A DNA stretch of 12,767 bases. It comes from Candidatus Wukongarchaeum yapensis (GTDB lineage Archaea > Asgardarchaeota > Wukongarchaeia > Wukongarchaeales > Wukongarchaeaceae). This document shows positions 9,080-12,728 of this stretch, in pieces. A program made the translations under genes and the position numbers. The DNA is taken from contig JAEOSI010000040.1 of the NCBI GenBank assembly GCA_016840425.1, positions 1-12,767 of the forward strand, read 5' to 3'. Below the pieces are notes generated by a model, which was given only the letters and a program-made list of their open reading frames with translations, ran no database searches and was not told the DNA's origin. Each line of letters starts with the position of its first letter. The first letter of the stretch is position 1.

Positions 9080-9748
9080 ATGTTTAGAATGAACATGGAT
9101 GAAAGTTTTTCTGAAAATATTTCTGAAGATTTTATAGATGGAAAAAAATCGAAGGGTAAAGAGGCGGTAATAACCAAAGAAATAATTGAAGGAAGCCTCC
9201 GAGAAATCGATGTAAACCGTTATATTTTTGTAGCATATACTTTTACAGATTCAGAACACGCTGAAGTTTCAGTTGTTAGAAGCTGGCGTGGTTTAGCAAA
9301 AAAAGGTTTAAATCGCATGATTAACGTTCTTTTAGATTTTGGCCATCTTTTAAAAATGATCGCTTTTGATCCTGCAGCAGCAAAAGAAGTTTGCTCCTTC
9401 CCCATACTTGAATTAGGGAGGTTGGGTAAAGAAGAAATATCCCTTTACGAAACAAAGTTTTCTAACGCTCTTCTCGTGTGTTTGTATTATTCCGATATGG
9501 AGCTCGCTTTGGGGGAAGTTCCTGTAACACAAGTACTATACCGCTTTGGCTTGAAAAAACCGATAATTTTTAGCGTTACTTCAGATGTTTCAACAAGCCT
9601 TGTTATAGGTGTTTTAGGGGATGTACCCCAAGGGGATAAGCTAATAAAACTTAAGGAAATCCTTCAGAATTTTATGTTAGCCTTTGAAAGCTGCTTAATA
9701 CCTCGTCATAATATGAAAATCACCCATGTCCTAGACTTAGGCTTTTAA
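9080..9748 (+). CDS. Hypothetical protein, possible divergent Roadblock/longin-like fold (GTPase partner)
   Basis: GGAG RBS; 40 nt upstream of the GTPase. The C-terminal VTQVLYRFGLKKPIIFSVTSDVSTSLVIGVLG...LIKLKEILQNFMLAF has the three-strand-plus-helix pattern of Roadblock proteins. The gene call is firm; the fold call is tentative. Confidence 0.6.
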   Translation: MFRMNMDESFSENISEDFIDGKKSKGKEAVITKEIIEGSLREIDVNRYIFVAYTFTDSEHAEVSVVRSWRGLAKKGLNRMINVLLDFGHLLKMIAFDPAAAKEVCSFPILELGRLGKEEISLYETKFSNALLVCLYYSDMELALGEVPVTQVLYRFGLKKPIIFSVTSDVSTSLVIGVLGDVPQGDKLIKLKEILQNFMLAFESCLIPRHNMKITHVLDLGF

Positions 9749-9788
9749 CAATCTTAATCCCCTCTGTTGGTCTTTGGAGTGAGTTATT

Positions 9789-10325
9789 TTGGTAAATATA
9801 GGCTTGTTAGGTTATAAAAACGTCGGAAAAACAAGCCTGTTTACCCTCTTTAAAGAGACAAAAGGCGTAAAAGTTTTAACTGGTCAGTTTGGCTCATCTA
9901 GAGAAGGTCACACAGTCACCATGGATTTCATAAGGTTCACAAACGAGGGAAAAATGCATTCACTTTTCGGAACGGGGGGGCATGAATGGCGTTTAACCGT
10001 ATACCACCGGAACTATGTTTTAAAAAACGCCGATAATTTCGTTTGTATGTTTGATTTATCGGTCCCATCAGAGCCTCAACTTGAATTTTTTAAAAAACTA
10101 GAGATTTTAGCAAATCCTAAAGGTAAGCTCGTTATCGCCCTTAATAAATACGACTTAGTGAAGGAAGAAAGCGTTTTTGAAACTTTTAAACAAACAATAG
10201 AAGAATCAAGGTTCATAAGCACGATAAAAACTGTCAAAATTTTACCCACTGTAGCAGTTCCTAAAAATGGGTATGAAAAATTCAATGAAAACGCTGTAAA
10301 AGCTGTCCTCCTTCTATGTGACTAA
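9789..10325 (+). CDS. Small GTPase, MglA-like prokaryotic Ras-superfamily group
   Basis: G1 GYKNVGKTS, G2 HTVTMDF, G3 region LFGTGGHE (cf. LFGTPGQ of MglA/CvnD-like GTPases), beta4 FVCMFD, G4 ALNKYD, G5-like PTVA. TTG start with GGAG/GAG upstream. Confidence 0.92.
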   Translation: MVNIGLLGYKNVGKTSLFTLFKETKGVKVLTGQFGSSREGHTVTMDFIRFTNEGKMHSLFGTGGHEWRLTVYHRNYVLKNADNFVCMFDLSVPSEPQLEFFKKLEILANPKGKLVIALNKYDLVKEESVFETFKQTIEESRFISTIKTVKILPTVAVPKNGYEKFNENAVKAVLLLCD

Positions 10326-10469: not shown

Positions 10470-11171
10470 ATGTTTCAAGACGATAAAAGGCTTCGTAAAC
10501 AGGTTTATTTTTATCCATGGTCCATAGCCAAAATAATCCGTCATGTTAGTAGGTTTCCTCATCGTGAAATAGCAGGTTTTCTCATCGGAAAAGTTTCCAA
10601 AGAGGGAGAACTATACATTTTTGATGCAATGAGCGGGAAACATCAAGGTACTAGCACTTCTGTAATATTAGACGAAAGTATAATGGCGCAAATAGCAGAA
10701 GATTTAGAAAAATATGGAGAAGAATTAGCCATTGTAGGATGGTACCACAGTCACCCTGGGCTAGGAGCCCATTTTATGTCAAGTACTGATGTTCAAACCC
10801 AAAAGGTTTATCAATCCTATTTTCCAAAAGCTGTAGCCCTCGTAATCGATCCTGTTCCCTTCAACCGCTCTGGAAACTGGGAAGATATCGATATACATCT
10901 CTACCATGTAGTTAAAGACGCCTATAAAGAAAACCAGGTAGTTTATATAACCGACATAGAGAAAGTTGTTCCCCATCTTGTCCACGCATTAAGCTTTGAA
11001 TTTATCCCTCCTAAACCTTCTCCGGAAAAAGAAGTACCCCAAGAAGAGCTCTACTATCCTACTGAAGTTAAACAAGAAAAAATGGACTATTTCTCCGAAA
11101 TAGTAAACTACTTTTTTGCTTCTGTTATAACAATTATTTCTTTAATCCTGATAATCTTTACAAGCATATGA
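10470..11171 (+). CDS. JAB1/MPN+ (JAMM) metalloprotease, Rpn11-like, with C-terminal transmembrane anchor
   Basis: Catalytic Glu in HREIAGFLIG, IVGWYHSHPGLGAHFMSSTDVQTQ and ALVIDP, followed by a Pro-rich linker and terminal hydrophobic IVNYFFASVITIISLILIIFTSI-stop. Confidence 0.92.
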   Translation: MFQDDKRLRKQVYFYPWSIAKIIRHVSRFPHREIAGFLIGKVSKEGELYIFDAMSGKHQGTSTSVILDESIMAQIAEDLEKYGEELAIVGWYHSHPGLGAHFMSSTDVQTQKVYQSYFPKAVALVIDPVPFNRSGNWEDIDIHLYHVVKDAYKENQVVYITDIEKVVPHLVHALSFEFIPPKPSPEKEVPQEELYYPTEVKQEKMDYFSEIVNYFFASVITIISLILIIFTSI

Positions 11172-11207: not shown

Positions 11208-12728
11208 ATGGTTCAGGAAACCGATAAAAAGTCTTCTAAAAAAGAGGAAACAGGGCAACTTATACCCTTATTTTCTTCCATAAATTTTACGCTATCTCCG
11301 GGAGACTTAAAACATCTTATCAAAAAATTAAGCGGTTTAGGCTTTGAGCAAAATGCCTATGAAGAAGATGGAAAAAGAATAGTTTTAACCCCGAAAGATT
11401 ATAGCACTTTTAAGCTCCTTGATGCAAAAGTTTTAGTAAAGTTTCCCAGGCTATTTGATCCCTTAAACTTTTTGGTAACGTGTTATTCTGGGCAACTCAA
11501 AGTGAAAGAGAACACAGAAGTGTTAAACGTAAATTATCATGGGTCAGTAAATGGTCTTGATGCAAGGAGAATGCTAAGTCTCTCAAACCTTCTTGAATTC
11601 GCAGAATGGCCAAAAGAGCTGGAAAAATGGATCAAAAGTCCGTTAATTTTCTCCGTTTTTTTGTGTAAAAACAAAAAGACTATCAACCAAGTCGTAGAAG
11701 AAAATTTCCCAGACCAGGAAGTACAATGGATCGCAGATGAAGACTCTTCTACGAAAATAGCTTTTTTAGGACAAAGTCCTGGCAAACATGTTTCAGGCTA
11801 CGTGATGACTACTTCGTTCGATGTCTTGCATTTTGGTCCTGATTGGCAGCTAAACGAAGCAACCATGCCTGATTCCATAGTCGTTTTCATAGTGGATAAA
11901 GAACTATATACCAACGCTAAAAGGGATTTAGAAGAGTTCGGTCAGTTCGATTTTGTCAACATAGGCTCCTCAGTAAAACTCTCCTCTCTTCGCGCTTTAG
12001 AAATCATAGAAAAACTTTTACCGTGCATAGTTCTTTTTAACAATCTACTCAAAATTAAGGAAGAGATAATTAACATTCTTGCAGAAACACCTCAATTATA
12101 CGGGGAGGACTATCGTGGCTATCTTGAGGCTCTAATCGCAGTTGATGAAAAACTTTTCACCCTCGACGAACTCTTTCATAACGCCAAAAATGTAGTAAAA
12201 ACCACAATATCTGCTCTAGAAATAAACAGTGTTTCTAACTATTTAAATTCAAATACAGAGGATGGTCAATGGTTAAACGATACTATTAAAGTCCTAACTG
12301 AAAAAGGTTATTTAGGTCTTCTATCTCTCATAGAAGATCTTGTCGACAGCCTAAATAAAGCCAAAGACCTCATACAGAGGAAAATAACCATAGTTAACCT
12401 TCAACTATCTCTAAGACGAGAAAAAATAGAGATCACAGAAAACCGTATTCTACGCGGTATATCCATCATATTTTTGGGAGCAGCAGTAGCCGAAATATTT
12501 TCCCAAATCCTCCCCTCCTTCTTTTCAAGTTTCTGGTTTATTCTAACCGTGAGCTTAGCAGAAGGATTAGGTATCGGCTTACTTCTCTTATGCGGCTTTG
12601 AAATAATGTCTGAAAAATCAAAAGCTATAGACGACAAAAGAAAAATAAGCCACCAACTCATAATCTTTACAACAATCTCCGCATTAATGATCATAATCCC
12701 AATAATCTATATCTTTAGGCGGCTCTAA
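11208..12728 (+). CDS. Membrane protein with large soluble N-domain, long helical stalk and three C-terminal TM helices (CorA-like architecture, no GMN motif)
   Basis: Stalk LIEDLVDSLNKAKDLIQRKITIVNLQLSLRREKIEITENRILRG runs into TM1 ISIIFLGAAVAEIF, then TM2 FWFILTVSLAEGLGIGLLLLCGF and TM3 LIIFTTISALMIIIPIIYIF. The gene call is firm; the family call is weak. Confidence 0.7.
   Translation: MVQETDKKSSKKEETGQLIPLFSSINFTLSPGDLKHLIKKLSGLGFEQNAYEEDGKRIVLTPKDYSTFKLLDAKVLVKFPRLFDPLNFLVTCYSGQLKVKENTEVLNVNYHGSVNGLDARRMLSLSNLLEFAEWPKELEKWIKSPLIFSVFLCKNKKTINQVVEENFPDQEVQWIADEDSSTKIAFLGQSPGKHVSGYVMTTSFDVLHFGPDWQLNEATMPDSIVVFIVDKELYTNAKRDLEEFGQFDFVNIGSSVKLSSLRALEIIEKLLPCIVLFNNLLKIKEEIINILAETPQLYGEDYRGYLEALIAVDEKLFTLDELFHNAKNVVKTTISALEINSVSNYLNSNTEDGQWLNDTIKVLTEKGYLGLLSLIEDLVDSLNKAKDLIQRKITIVNLQLSLRREKIEITENRILRGISIIFLGAAVAEIFSQILPSFFSSFWFILTVSLAEGLGIGLLLLCGFEIMSEKSKAIDDKRKISHQLIIFTTISALMIIIPIIYIFRRL

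What the first reader, a model, noticed from the sequence alone, without database searches (positions are those of the whole stretch)
10470..11171. Tail-anchored Rpn11-like JAMM protease
Seen: full catalytic set (Glu, HSH at 10746-10754, Ser, Asp at 10788-10790) in eukaryote-like VGWYHSHPG and ALVIDP contexts, then a PPKPSP linker and a single C-terminal TM (about 11100-11168) with no signal peptide. Spacing is HxH-x8-S-x2-D rather than the canonical x7. Known: Rpn11, CSN5 and AMSH are soluble, and AMSH reaches membranes through ESCRT partners. Inference: a deubiquitinase-like enzyme hard-wired to the cytoplasmic membrane face, suggesting ubiquitin-like editing of membrane cargo in an archaeon.
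Basis: partly seen in the sequence, partly recalled or inferred. Interest (0 to 1): 0.75.

Follow-up and report, generated by a model that had tools for sequence, protein, structure and literature searches.

The report
Tail-anchored Rpn11-like deubiquitinase, Asgard archaeon
This gene of an Asgard (Hodarchaeales) archaeon encodes a ubiquitin-removing zinc protease of the Rpn11 type that ends in a membrane anchor. The same design is kept in at least 15 Asgard families but is described in no paper I could find, which suggests that ubiquitin removal in the closest archaeal relatives of eukaryotes happens at the membrane.

Summary
ORF 10470-11171 (+) encodes 233 aa: an intact JAMM/MPN+ core (Glu33, His93-x-His95, Ser104, Asp107), a disordered Pro-rich linker, and one very hydrophobic helix at the extreme C-terminus. 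There is no signal peptide.

- **Closest relatives:** the nearest solved relative is the Caldiarchaeum ubiquitin isopeptidase CsRpn11 (E 2.7e-35), then eukaryotic Rpn11, CSN5 and AMSH.
- **The anchor is conserved:** 29 of the 30 closest Asgard homologues, in 15 Asgard families overall, end in such a helix. Only its position and hydrophobicity are conserved, not its sequence.
- **Genome context:** this is the genome's only Rpn11-type JAMM. The genome also has ubiquitin ending in Gly-Gly, a RING E3, E2, E1-like genes, and ESCRT-I, -II and -III.
- **Link to ubiquitin genes:** ubiquitin genes sit next to the soluble paralogues, never next to the anchored form.
- **Predicted complex:** a model places the ubiquitin tail in the active site (0.81 against 0.00 for controls). 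Similar complexes are already solved, so this pass may reflect likeness only.

Best reading: a deubiquitinase tethered to the membrane with its catalytic domain in the cytoplasm. A role in editing membrane cargo is inference.

I found no paper describing this architecture. This scan has noted it before on other DNA (e1-5396763, e1-2929142). I class it as a new variant of a known kind.

The parts
10470..11171 (+). Whole gene: 233-aa tail-anchored Rpn11-like JAMM/MPN+ metalloprotease, plus stop codon
   Evidence: ORF and translation. Pfam JAB PF01398 at 1.3e-18. CsRpn11 6FJU at E 2.7e-35. The same-genus orthologue is 85% identical, with dN/dS 0.43 overall and 0.31 in the MPN core.
10503..10919 (+). 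MPN/JAMM catalytic core, residues 12-150
   Evidence: In the AlphaFold2 model the pLDDT block means are 80-93 across this range. Foldseek top hits are CsRpn11 6FNO/6FNN/6FJU (E about 1e-15, TM-score on the target 0.75-0.85), then yeast and human Rpn11 and CSN5.
10566..10568 (+). Catalytic Glu33, the general base that polarises the water
   Evidence: Invariant in alignment A1. Aligned to the Glu of CsRpn11. Contacts the ubiquitin tail in the predicted complex.
10641..10679 (+). Ins-1-like segment, residues 58-70, predicted to pair with the ubiquitin C-terminal strand
   Evidence: Residues 63-70 are in the confident interface of the predicted complex. The role of Ins-1 is described for CsRpn11 in PMC6043591.
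10746..10790 (+). Zinc-binding motif His93-Ser-His95, 8-residue spacer, Ser104, 2 residues, Asp107
   Evidence: Read directly from the sequence. H93, H95, S104 and D107 are invariant in A1. There is a one-residue insertion relative to CsRpn11 and Rpn11. The x8 form occurs in 21 of the 30 nearest homologues.
10995..11078 (+). Flexible Pro/Glu-rich linker, residues 176-203, including PPKPSP
   Evidence: pLDDT below 50 for residues 176-203. Length and sequence vary among orthologues. dN/dS is 0.58 for residues 161-205.
11100..11168 (+). C-terminal transmembrane helix (tail anchor), residues 211-233, with no residues beyond it
   Evidence: Kyte-Doolittle mean 2.62 for residues 215-233. It lies within the AlphaFold2 helix 200-232, whose pLDDT is about 90 here. 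An equivalent helix is present in 29 of 30 nearest homologues and in 15 Asgard families.
11208..12728 (+). Downstream 506-aa protein with three C-terminal hydrophobic helices, 36 nt after the JAMM stop. This is context only.
   Evidence: ORF. Helices at residues 414-438, 442-466 and 480-504. No Pfam family passes its cut-off. It is adjacent to the JAMM gene only in the same genus (L017), not in the other lineages examined.
9080..10325 (+). Upstream 222-aa protein and 178-aa small GTPase, 144 nt before the JAMM gene. This is context only.
   Evidence: GTPase: TIGR00231 at 5.1e-11. The 222-aa protein matches no family. The arrangement is shared only with the same-genus genome.

Best explanation
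The gene encodes an active zinc isopeptidase of the Rpn11/CsRpn11 type. It is inserted into the cytoplasmic membrane after translation through its C-terminal helix. The MPN domain stays in the cytoplasm on a flexible tether: a poorly predicted stretch of about 25 residues with one short helix, then a linker of about 30 residues.

The proposed mechanism follows other JAMM enzymes. His93, His95 and Asp107 hold Zn2+. Glu33 activates the water. Ser104 stabilises the intermediate. The Ins-1 segment pairs with the extended C-terminal tail of the organism's own ubiquitin, so the bond after Gly-Gly is cut.

Because the enzyme is fixed to the membrane, it should mainly remove ubiquitin from proteins at or near the membrane. 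It is the only Rpn11-type JAMM in a genome that has ubiquitin, a RING E3, an E2, E1-like genes and ESCRT-I, -II and -III. It is therefore the likely eraser of that system, working like AMSH or Doa4 in the eukaryotic ubiquitin-ESCRT pathway but anchored directly rather than through partners.

Shown by computation: the fold, the catalytic residues, the conserved anchor and the genomic distribution. Inferred: catalysis, topology, ubiquitin as the substrate, and the link to membrane cargo.
For: **Family and fold**
- JAB PF01398 at 1.3e-18.
- Best solved relative is CsRpn11, 6FJU at 2.7e-35, followed by Rpn11 (about 1e-17), CSN5 (about 1e-13) and AMSH (about 1e-6).
- Foldseek ranks CsRpn11-ubiquitin complexes first.
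- CsRpn11 is an experimentally shown ubiquitin-specific isopeptidase that does not cut SAMPs (PMC6043591).

**Active site**
- E33, H93, H95, S104 and D107 are invariant in A1.
- MPN-core dN/dS against the same-genus orthologue is 0.31.

**Anchor**
- Hydropathy 2.62 at residues 215-233, and a confident AlphaFold2 helix.
- 29 of 30 nearest Asgard loci carry a terminal helix. Further families add up to 15.
- 35 of the top 60 global 50%-identity representatives are tail-anchored.
- The anchor sequence is no more conserved than shuffled sequence, at 0.15 for both. This is what a lipid-facing anchor should look like.

**Genome context**
- This is the only PF01398 hit in a 92%-complete genome.
- Ubiquitin (77 aa, ending in Gly-Gly then stop), RING-H2, UEV-Vps23, Vps28 and EAP30 lie together on contig C109. 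An E2 is on C135, ThiF/E1-like genes are present, and two Snf7 genes are on C143.
- Five other genomes whose only match is the anchored form all have an unlinked ubiquitin gene.
- A full-length ArsA/Get3-type ATPase is present. This is compatible with tail-anchor insertion but not discriminating, because the control rang in all 14 control genomes.

**Predicted complex of residues 1-160 with the genome's ubiquitin**
- Score 0.81, best control 0.00. The mark was reached by 58 of 80 solved complexes and 2 of 110 mismatched pairs.
- The runs agree in at least 98% of contacts, and the partner's pLDDT is at least 89.
- The ubiquitin tail touches residues 33, 93, 95, 104, 106 and 107 and the Ins-1 segment.
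- Like complexes are solved (6FNN, 5U4P), so the pass may be from memory. It shows likeness, not binding.

**Expression hint**
- A metatranscriptome run holds a 244-nt contig identical to 10615-10858. This is a weak hint only.
Against: - No biochemical or localisation data exist for any member of this family.
- The gene is not next to ubiquitin, E1, E2, E3 or ESCRT genes here. Ubiquitin-like ORFs sit beside soluble paralogues but beside none of the anchored forms examined. Flanks were mostly only 1.5 kb.
- The Ub-Vps23 cluster on C109 holds no JAMM gene.
- The one-residue insertion between the zinc ligands and Ser104 is untested for its effect on activity.
- This genome's ubiquitin already ends in Gly-Gly, so precursor processing cannot be the role here.
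- The immediate neighbours are conserved only within the genus. The partners conserved in other classes were not found in this genome.
- dN/dS of the anchor (0.88) and of the whole gene (0.43) is not low, though it is based on few sites.
- The tree does not resolve whether the anchored forms are one clade. Starred branches force at least 5 changes of the label.
Confidence: 0.6

Rival explanations
1. This is the general, and here the only, ubiquitin isopeptidase of the cell. The anchor is a regulatory device: it keeps the enzyme away from cytosolic conjugates, or limits its concentration, rather than targeting membrane cargo. Substrates would be any ubiquitin conjugate that reaches the membrane, plus ubiquitin precursors in lineages that have them.
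For: It is the only PF01398 protein in the genome. Five other genomes have ubiquitin with only the anchored form as a match. A related ubiquitin, P0168, carries a C-terminal extension after Gly-Gly that would need processing. CsRpn11 does both processing and deconjugation (PMC6043591).
Against: This genome's ubiquitin needs no processing. Several families keep a soluble, ubiquitin-linked paralogue alongside the anchored one, for example G117 with L023 and L064. That points to a separate role for the anchored copy.
Confidence: 0.2
2. It is a membrane-tethered JAMM peptidase that acts on something other than ubiquitin. Candidates are a SAMP/Urm1/ThiS-type modifier or another membrane-associated conjugate.
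For: Prokaryotic JAMMs commonly serve non-ubiquitin modifiers. The NCBIfam desampylase model gives a weak hit (2.5e-5, far below its cut-off). The gene is never adjacent to ubiquitin. In Baldr, Odin and other classes it sits in a cassette with two proteins of unknown family.
Against: Its nearest characterised relative, CsRpn11, is ubiquitin-specific and rejects SAMPs. The genome has two other JAB proteins of the prokaryotic type that can serve other modifiers, on C238 and as a JAB-E1 fusion on C119. The predicted complex with the genome's ubiquitin passed (0.81 against 0.00; 58 of 80 solved complexes and 2 of 110 mismatched pairs reach the mark; possibly from memory of solved complexes).
Confidence: 0.12
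3. It is a non-catalytic MPN scaffold, like EMC8/EMC9 of the eukaryotic ER membrane protein complex, serving as a structural subunit of a membrane complex.
For: Pfam UPF0172 (EMC8/9) matches at 3.4e-12. EMC9 appears in the PDB list at 1.5e-3.
Against: The JAB model scores higher (67 against 47 bits). All five catalytic residues are present and invariant across orthologues. From general knowledge, not tested here, EMC8/9 are MPN-minus proteins without the zinc site. Related Pfam families matching one stretch is expected.
Confidence: 0.03
4. The C-terminal hydrophobic helix is not a membrane anchor. Instead it is an oligomerisation or partner-binding helix of a soluble protein.
For: No transmembrane predictor trained on known topologies, and no experiment, was available. 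Eukaryotic Rpn11 uses C-terminal helices to join the lid helical bundle (PMC6043591).
Against: Of the 15 windows of 19 residues, 14 hold no charged residue and one holds a single one, and their hydropathy of 2.15-3.12 is far above that of amphipathic bundle helices. The helices end 0-6 residues from the terminus. Their sequence identity equals the shuffled expectation, so no specific interface is conserved.
Confidence: 0.05

Closest known systems
CsRpn11, the Rpn11 homologue of Candidatus Caldiarchaeum subterraneum (PDB 6FJU, 6FJV, 6FNN, 6FNO; PMC6043591)
   Same: It is the best sequence and fold match (E 2.7e-35; 39-45% identity in the Foldseek alignments). It has the same catalytic residues and an Ins-1 segment. 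It also acts alone rather than in a proteasome lid.
   Different: CsRpn11 is soluble, 202 aa, with no hydrophobic tail (its look-alikes P0008 and P0009). It has x7 spacing. It sits in the Ub-E2-E1-RING operon. The window's protein has a tail anchor, x8 spacing and no linkage to ubiquitin genes.
Eukaryotic Rpn11/PSMD14 (26S proteasome lid) and CSN5 (COP9 signalosome)
   Same: They share the MPN+ fold and near-identical motif contexts (GWYHSHPG, VVDP). E values are about 1e-17 and 1e-13.
   Different: The window's protein has no C-terminal lid-helix domain, since Pfam reports no MitMem_reg or CSN5_C. The genome has no second PF01398 gene that could act as an Rpn8/CSN6-like partner. The eukaryote-like sequences form their own supported clade (SH-aLRT 96) away from the query. 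The eukaryotic proteins are soluble subunits of complexes.
AMSH/STAMBP, AMSH-LP and fission yeast Sst2 (ESCRT-associated JAMM deubiquitinases)
   Same: They are stand-alone JAMM isopeptidases that work at membranes in a ubiquitin-ESCRT pathway. This is the nearest functional analogy. Sequence match is about 1e-6.
   Different: AMSH reaches membranes through MIT and clathrin/STAM-binding regions that bind ESCRT proteins (general knowledge). No such domain is detected here. Here the anchoring is covalent, through a transmembrane helix.
Tail-anchored or membrane-anchored cysteine deubiquitinases of eukaryotes (USP19 at the ER, USP30 on mitochondria)
   Same: The design principle is the same: a cytosol-facing deubiquitinase fixed to a membrane by one helix. 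This comparison is from general knowledge and was not tested here.
   Different: The catalytic fold is unrelated (USP cysteine protease against JAMM metalloprotease). I know of no eukaryotic JAMM with a transmembrane anchor.
JAMM proteins with an internal membrane helix and a long C-terminal domain, in other archaea and in bacteria
   Same: They have an N-terminal Rpn11-like JAMM followed by a membrane helix. About 30 of the 150 best global representatives are built this way. Earlier notes of this scan describe such proteins inside ubiquitin-like operons.
   Different: Those proteins continue for 200-600 residues after the helix, presumably outside the cell. They form separate clades in the tree. 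The Asgard form ends with the helix.

Membership tests
JAMM/MPN+ metalloproteases (Pfam JAB, PF01398) | MPN fold recognised by the family model above its curated cut-off | tested here: met
   67.3 bits against a cut-off of 22.5. AlphaFold2 core pLDDT is 80-93. Foldseek hits to Rpn11 and CSN5 structures have probability 1.00.
JAMM/MPN+ metalloproteases (Pfam JAB, PF01398) | Catalytic Glu, the His-x-His and Asp zinc ligands, and the conserved Ser | tested here: met
   E33, H93, H95, S104 and D107 are present and invariant in 12 homologues. They align to the CsRpn11 residues.
JAMM/MPN+ metalloproteases (Pfam JAB, PF01398) | Canonical spacing His-x-His-x7-Ser-x2-Asp | tested here: not met
   The spacing is x8. 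There is a one-residue gap in the CsRpn11 alignment at residue 101. The trait is shared by 21 of the 30 nearest homologues. This is a variation in a loop, not the loss of a ligand.
JAMM/MPN+ metalloproteases (Pfam JAB, PF01398) | Zinc-dependent isopeptidase activity | not testable with these tools
   This needs an enzyme assay.
Rpn11 proper (proteasome lid subunit) | C-terminal helices that join the lid bundle, and an MPN-minus partner (Rpn8) | tested here: not met
   No MitMem_reg-type domain was reported by Pfam. This is the single PF01398 gene in the genome. The C-terminus is a linker plus a membrane helix.
CsRpn11-type operon deubiquitinase of archaeal ubiquitin operons | Encoded next to ubiquitin, E1, E2 and RING genes, and soluble | tested here: not met
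   The ubiquitin cluster is on another contig and holds no JAMM. No ubiquitin-like ORF lies beside any anchored form, whereas soluble paralogues L063, L064 and L065 have one.
AMSH/STAMBP family | An N-terminal MIT or other ESCRT-binding region together with the JAMM core | tested here: not met
   Pfam finds only JAB-related families in the 233 residues. AMSH matches are weak, at about 1e-6.
Tail-anchored membrane proteins (architectural class) | A single transmembrane segment at the extreme C-terminus, with no signal peptide or other hydrophobic segment | tested here: met
   The only window above 1.9 is at residues 215-233 (2.62), and the N-terminal maximum is 0.36. AlphaFold2 gives a helix at 200-232. 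The feature is conserved in 15 families.
Tail-anchored membrane proteins (architectural class) | Post-translational insertion with the N-terminal domain in the cytoplasm | not testable with these tools
   An ArsA/Get3-type ATPase is present, but the family rings in all 14 control genomes, so its presence proves nothing.
EMC8/EMC9 (Pfam UPF0172, PF03665) | An MPN-minus pseudoenzyme without the zinc site | tested here: not met
   The model matches at 3.4e-12 but below the JAB score. The full zinc site is present.

The most novel reading that the evidence does not exclude
The tail-anchored Rpn11-like enzyme is an ancient, pan-Asgard, membrane-resident deubiquitinase. Together with the Asgard ubiquitin, RING E3, UEV-Vps23 and ESCRT genes, it would close a ubiquitin-dependent membrane-protein sorting cycle that existed before eukaryotes. 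On this reading the AMSH/Doa4 step was first solved by direct anchoring. In several classes the enzyme would work with two dedicated partner proteins of unknown fold, of about 400 and 256 aa.
Probability: 0.3. Interest if true: 0.8.

Novelty: new variant of a known kind. Interest (0 to 1): 0.6.

Why it matters
Asgard archaea, and Hodarchaeales in particular, are the closest known relatives of eukaryotes. Their ubiquitin and ESCRT genes are used to reconstruct how eukaryotic membrane trafficking began. Published work on archaeal ubiquitin erasers rests on the soluble, operon-encoded CsRpn11.

A conserved membrane-anchored Rpn11-type enzyme, which is the sole Rpn11-type JAMM in many Asgard genomes, would place ubiquitin removal at the membrane. 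That fits a sorting role for Asgard ubiquitin better than a proteasomal one.

It also gives a simple, testable protein. The soluble domain can be assayed against the organism's own ubiquitin. The anchor can be tested for insertion. The protein can be localised in the Asgard strains now in culture.

Tried and rejected
- **Partner proteins, language-model search.** Searches of the 256-aa and 425-aa proteins conserved next to the anchored JAMM in Odin and Baldr gave no usable relatives (best 0.83, below the useful range). Pfam gave nothing either.
- **Partner proteins, own genome.** A profile of the 256-aa family (A3) found no match in the window's genome. With 92% completeness this means not found, not absent.
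- **Phylogeny.** The tree had 128 MPN cores and 139 columns, built with the quick method. It did not resolve the backbone: 54 of 125 inner branches are open. I therefore make no claim that the anchored forms are monophyletic, or that eukaryotic Rpn11/CSN5 descend from an anchored ancestor.
- **dN/dS of the anchor.** The value of 0.88 rests on 28 codons and is uninformative.
- **RNA evidence.** One metatranscriptome run held a tenth of the sampled words. Two contigs lie on 9535-9998 and 10615-10858. Contigs in an RNA library do not prove transcription, and no habitat is inferred.
- **Get3/ArsA.** It is present, but the family rings in every control genome, so it is not evidence for a tail-anchor pathway.
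- **Literature.** Eight full-text searches and four papers searched by term (one section read in full) turned up no description of a membrane-anchored Asgard JAMM. The library lacks most subscription journals. This includes a 2011 Molecular BioSystems paper on prokaryotic RING/ubiquitin operons that I recall from memory and could not read.
- **EMC8/9 reading.** Considered and rejected because the zinc site is intact.
- **Neighbourhood as an operon.** The window's four-gene neighbourhood (222-aa protein, GTPase, JAMM, 506-aa membrane protein) was considered as a conserved functional operon. It is shared only with the same genus.
Full report
**1. The observation**

ORF 10470-11171 on the + strand runs from the first ATG after a stop to TGA and encodes 233 residues.
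- His93-Ser-His95 at 10746-10754.
- Asp107 at 10788-10790.
- Glu33 at 10566-10568 and Ser104 at 10779-10781.
- The hydrophobic tail from about 11100 to 11168.

The local contexts IVGWYHSHPGLG and AVALVIDP are there, as is the PPKPSP stretch. Eight residues separate His95 from Ser104. HMMER's alignment to the Caldiarchaeum enzyme puts a single-residue gap at position 101 and keeps Ser104 and Asp107 in register. The x8 reading is therefore right, and it reflects one inserted loop residue rather than a shifted ligand.

**2. What the protein is**

- Pfam assigns the JAB/MPN family (1.3e-18, 67 bits against a cut-off of 22.5). Lower, overlapping matches go to the related UPF0172 and Prok-JAB models.
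- Against all PDB sequences the best match is CsRpn11 of Candidatus Caldiarchaeum subterraneum (6FJU, 2.7e-35). Then come yeast and human Rpn11 (about 1e-17), CSN5 (about 1e-13), AMSH/Sst2 (about 1e-6), BRCC36 and, last, EMC9.
- An AlphaFold2 model built on 12 homologues has mean pLDDT 74. It has a confident MPN core (residues 12-150), a disordered stretch at 176-203, and a confident single helix at 200-232.
- Foldseek places the model on the CsRpn11-ubiquitin complexes first, with a target TM-score of 0.83-0.85 for those three chains, and then on Rpn11 and CSN5.
- CsRpn11 has been shown experimentally to cut after the Gly-Gly of its own ubiquitin, in both precursors and conjugates, and to reject SAMPs (PMC6043591).
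- E33, H93, H95, S104 and D107 are invariant in the alignment of 12 homologues.

**3. The anchor is real and conserved**

- The best 19-residue hydropathy window is the very last one, residues 215-233, with a mean of 2.62. No N-terminal window exceeds 0.36, so there is no signal peptide and no other membrane segment.
- A scan of 400 genomes of the phylum with the protein found matches in 295.
- Of the 30 best loci, 29 encode a protein whose strongest hydrophobic window (2.15-3.25) ends 0-5 residues from the C-terminus.
- Twenty more loci from weaker-scoring families added anchored forms of 219-289 aa. They also revealed soluble paralogues.
- Taking one representative per family, 15 Asgard families carry the anchor. 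Fourteen of the 15 windows hold no charged residue and one holds a single one. Pairwise identity is 0.15, exactly the shuffled expectation.
- So position and hydrophobicity are conserved and sequence is not. That is the signature of a lipid-facing anchor rather than a protein interface.
- In a profile search of 1.84 billion representatives, 35 of the best 60 proteins are tail-anchored. Further down come JAMM proteins with an internal helix and a long C-terminal domain, and then sequences with the Rpn11/CSN5 motif.
- The x8 spacing occurs in 21 of the 30 nearest loci. The other 9 have x7 and are anchored too, so the two traits are independent.

**4. Genome context**

I did not test that. The genome is 2.16 Mb and 92% complete.

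- The anchored gene is its only PF01398 match.
- Two other JAB proteins are of the prokaryotic type. One is a 156-aa protein on C238. The other is a JAB-E1 fusion on C119, with an E2-like gene just upstream.
- Contig C109 carries these genes:
  - a 77-aa ubiquitin that ends in Gly-Gly followed directly by the stop codon;
  - a RING-H2 protein;
  - a UEV-Vps23 protein;
  - Vps28;
  - an EAP30 (ESCRT-II) protein;
  - two Yip1-like membrane proteins (Yip1 is my reading of their sequences against the 2023 preprint's description of Hodarchaeia clusters; neither was scanned against a family library).
- This arrangement matches what a 2023 preprint reports for Hodarchaeia.
- A canonical E2 is on C135, ThiF/E1-like genes are on C63 and C232, and two Snf7 genes are on C143.
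- The substrate system and an ESCRT machinery are therefore present, but neither is linked to the JAMM gene.

Across all fetched loci, ubiquitin-like ORFs lie next to three soluble paralogues (L063, L064, L065). None lies next to an anchored form. Family f16 keeps both kinds in one genome: G117 has L023 (anchored) and L064 (soluble, next to ubiquitin). Five genomes in which the anchored form was the only match all have a ubiquitin gene elsewhere.

**5. Neighbours**

In the window, a 222-aa protein and a small GTPase lie upstream, 144 nt from the JAMM gene. A 506-aa protein with three C-terminal helices lies 36 nt downstream. This arrangement is shared only with the same-genus genome.

In Baldr-, Odin- and three further families, the anchored gene instead directly follows two conserved genes of unknown family, of about 400 and about 256 aa. 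Neither gene matched anything informative. A profile of the 256-aa family (A3) found nothing in the window's genome; the 400-aa family was not searched there. In family f14 a Roadblock/LC7 gene is adjacent.

**6. Mechanism**

The best-supported reading is a zinc isopeptidase that is inserted after translation by its tail. Its catalytic domain sits in the cytoplasm on a flexible tether and removes the organism's ubiquitin from proteins at the membrane.

A complex prediction of residues 1-160 with the genome's ubiquitin scored 0.81, against 0.00 for the best control. That mark was reached by 58 of 80 solved complexes and 2 of 110 mismatched pairs. The runs agree in at least 98% of contacts, and the partner's pLDDT is at least 89. 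The ubiquitin tail lies on residues 33, 93, 95, 104, 106 and 107 and on the Ins-1 segment. Because CsRpn11-ubiquitin and Rpn11-ubiquitin complexes are solved, this pass may be from memory. It shows likeness, not binding.

The same-genus orthologue is 85% identical, with dN/dS 0.31 in the MPN core. A metatranscriptome contig identical to 10615-10858 is a weak hint of expression.

The link to membrane cargo and ESCRT is inference. It rests on anchoring plus gene content.

**7. Rivals**

- The enzyme could be the cell's general eraser, with the anchor acting as a restraint.
- It could act on another modifier.
- It could be an EMC8/9-like scaffold. The intact zinc site argues against this.
- The helix could be an oligomerisation element. 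The hydropathy and the lack of sequence conservation argue against this.

**8. Comparison and novelty**

The protein is a member of the JAMM/MPN+ family and is nearest to CsRpn11. It fails the defining features of three narrower groups:
- Rpn11 proper, because there are no lid helices and no MPN-minus partner.
- The operon-type CsRpn11 class, because it is not soluble and not in a ubiquitin operon.
- AMSH, because it has no ESCRT-binding region.

It works most like AMSH or Doa4, or like the anchored cysteine deubiquitinases USP19 and USP30. That comparison is from general knowledge.

The tree of MPN cores leaves the backbone unresolved. The eukaryote-like sequences form their own clade (SH-aLRT 96) away from the query, and the anchored label needs at least five changes.

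No paper in the searchable library describes a membrane-anchored Asgard JAMM. Databases simply name these proteins Mov34/MPN/PAD-1 family or proteasome lid subunit RPN8/RPN11.

This scan has noted the same architecture before on other DNA. Notes e1-5396763 and e1-2929142 cover Asgard genomes, and others cover related anchored JAMMs in other phyla. My survey reached the same picture independently.

I class it as a new variant of a known kind, of moderate to high interest, resting wholly on computation.

Noticed in passing
L070 (G000 contig C109) 687-10998: A ubiquitin-ESCRT gene cluster. It holds two Yip1-like membrane proteins (my reading, not scanned against a family library), a 77-aa ubiquitin ending in Gly-Gly then stop, a RING-H2 protein, a coiled-coil protein, UEV-Vps23, Vps28, a 107-aa ORF and an EAP30 (ESCRT-II) protein. 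It contains no JAMM gene.
   Followed up: partly
L004 (G000 contig C119) 1-2369, minus strand: A JAB domain fused to a ThiF/E1 domain (more than 552 aa, running off the contig), directly preceded by a 205-aa protein with an E2-like HPP...C motif. This looks like a bacterial-type E2 plus JAB-E1 conjugation module, separate from the eukaryote-like ubiquitin set.
   Followed up: no
L015 2259-5014; L011 2575-6729; also L023, L026, L031, L039, L049, L053: A conserved cassette in Odin, Baldr and three further Asgard families. Genes of about 400 aa and about 256 aa, of no known family, lie directly upstream of the tail-anchored JAMM. The 256-aa family has 39 invariant columns (A3). A profile of the 256-aa family (A3) found nothing in the window's genome.
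   Followed up: partly
P0168 (84-aa ubiquitin homologue, 45% identical to the genome's ubiquitin): It carries eight residues after Gly-Gly, so it is a precursor form that would need a processing protease. The window genome's ubiquitin ends exactly at Gly-Gly.
   Followed up: no
L020-L045 (family f14) and L011 9868-10443: A Roadblock/LC7 gene lies next to the tail-anchored JAMM throughout family f14, and about 3 kb away in Baldr. In the window an unassigned 222-aa protein plus a small GTPase lie upstream. Asgard genomes are rich in such genes, so this may be chance.
   Followed up: no
P0025, P0030, P0045, P0054, L032 (about 290-300 aa): Close relatives with the same x8 motif have lost the terminal helix and carry a different soluble C-terminal extension of about 130 residues. 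The anchor has therefore been exchanged more than once.
   Followed up: no
window 9535-9998 and 10615-10858: Two contigs of one metatranscriptomic run lie on the end of the 222-aa gene running into the GTPase gene (7 differences) and inside the JAMM gene (0 differences).
   Followed up: partly
L067 (G398, same order, other family): The only other Hodarchaeales family sampled has no anchored form among its PF01398 matches. Its best match is a soluble 333-aa protein with x7 spacing that groups with soluble Asgard paralogues. That genome is 91% complete.
   Followed up: partly
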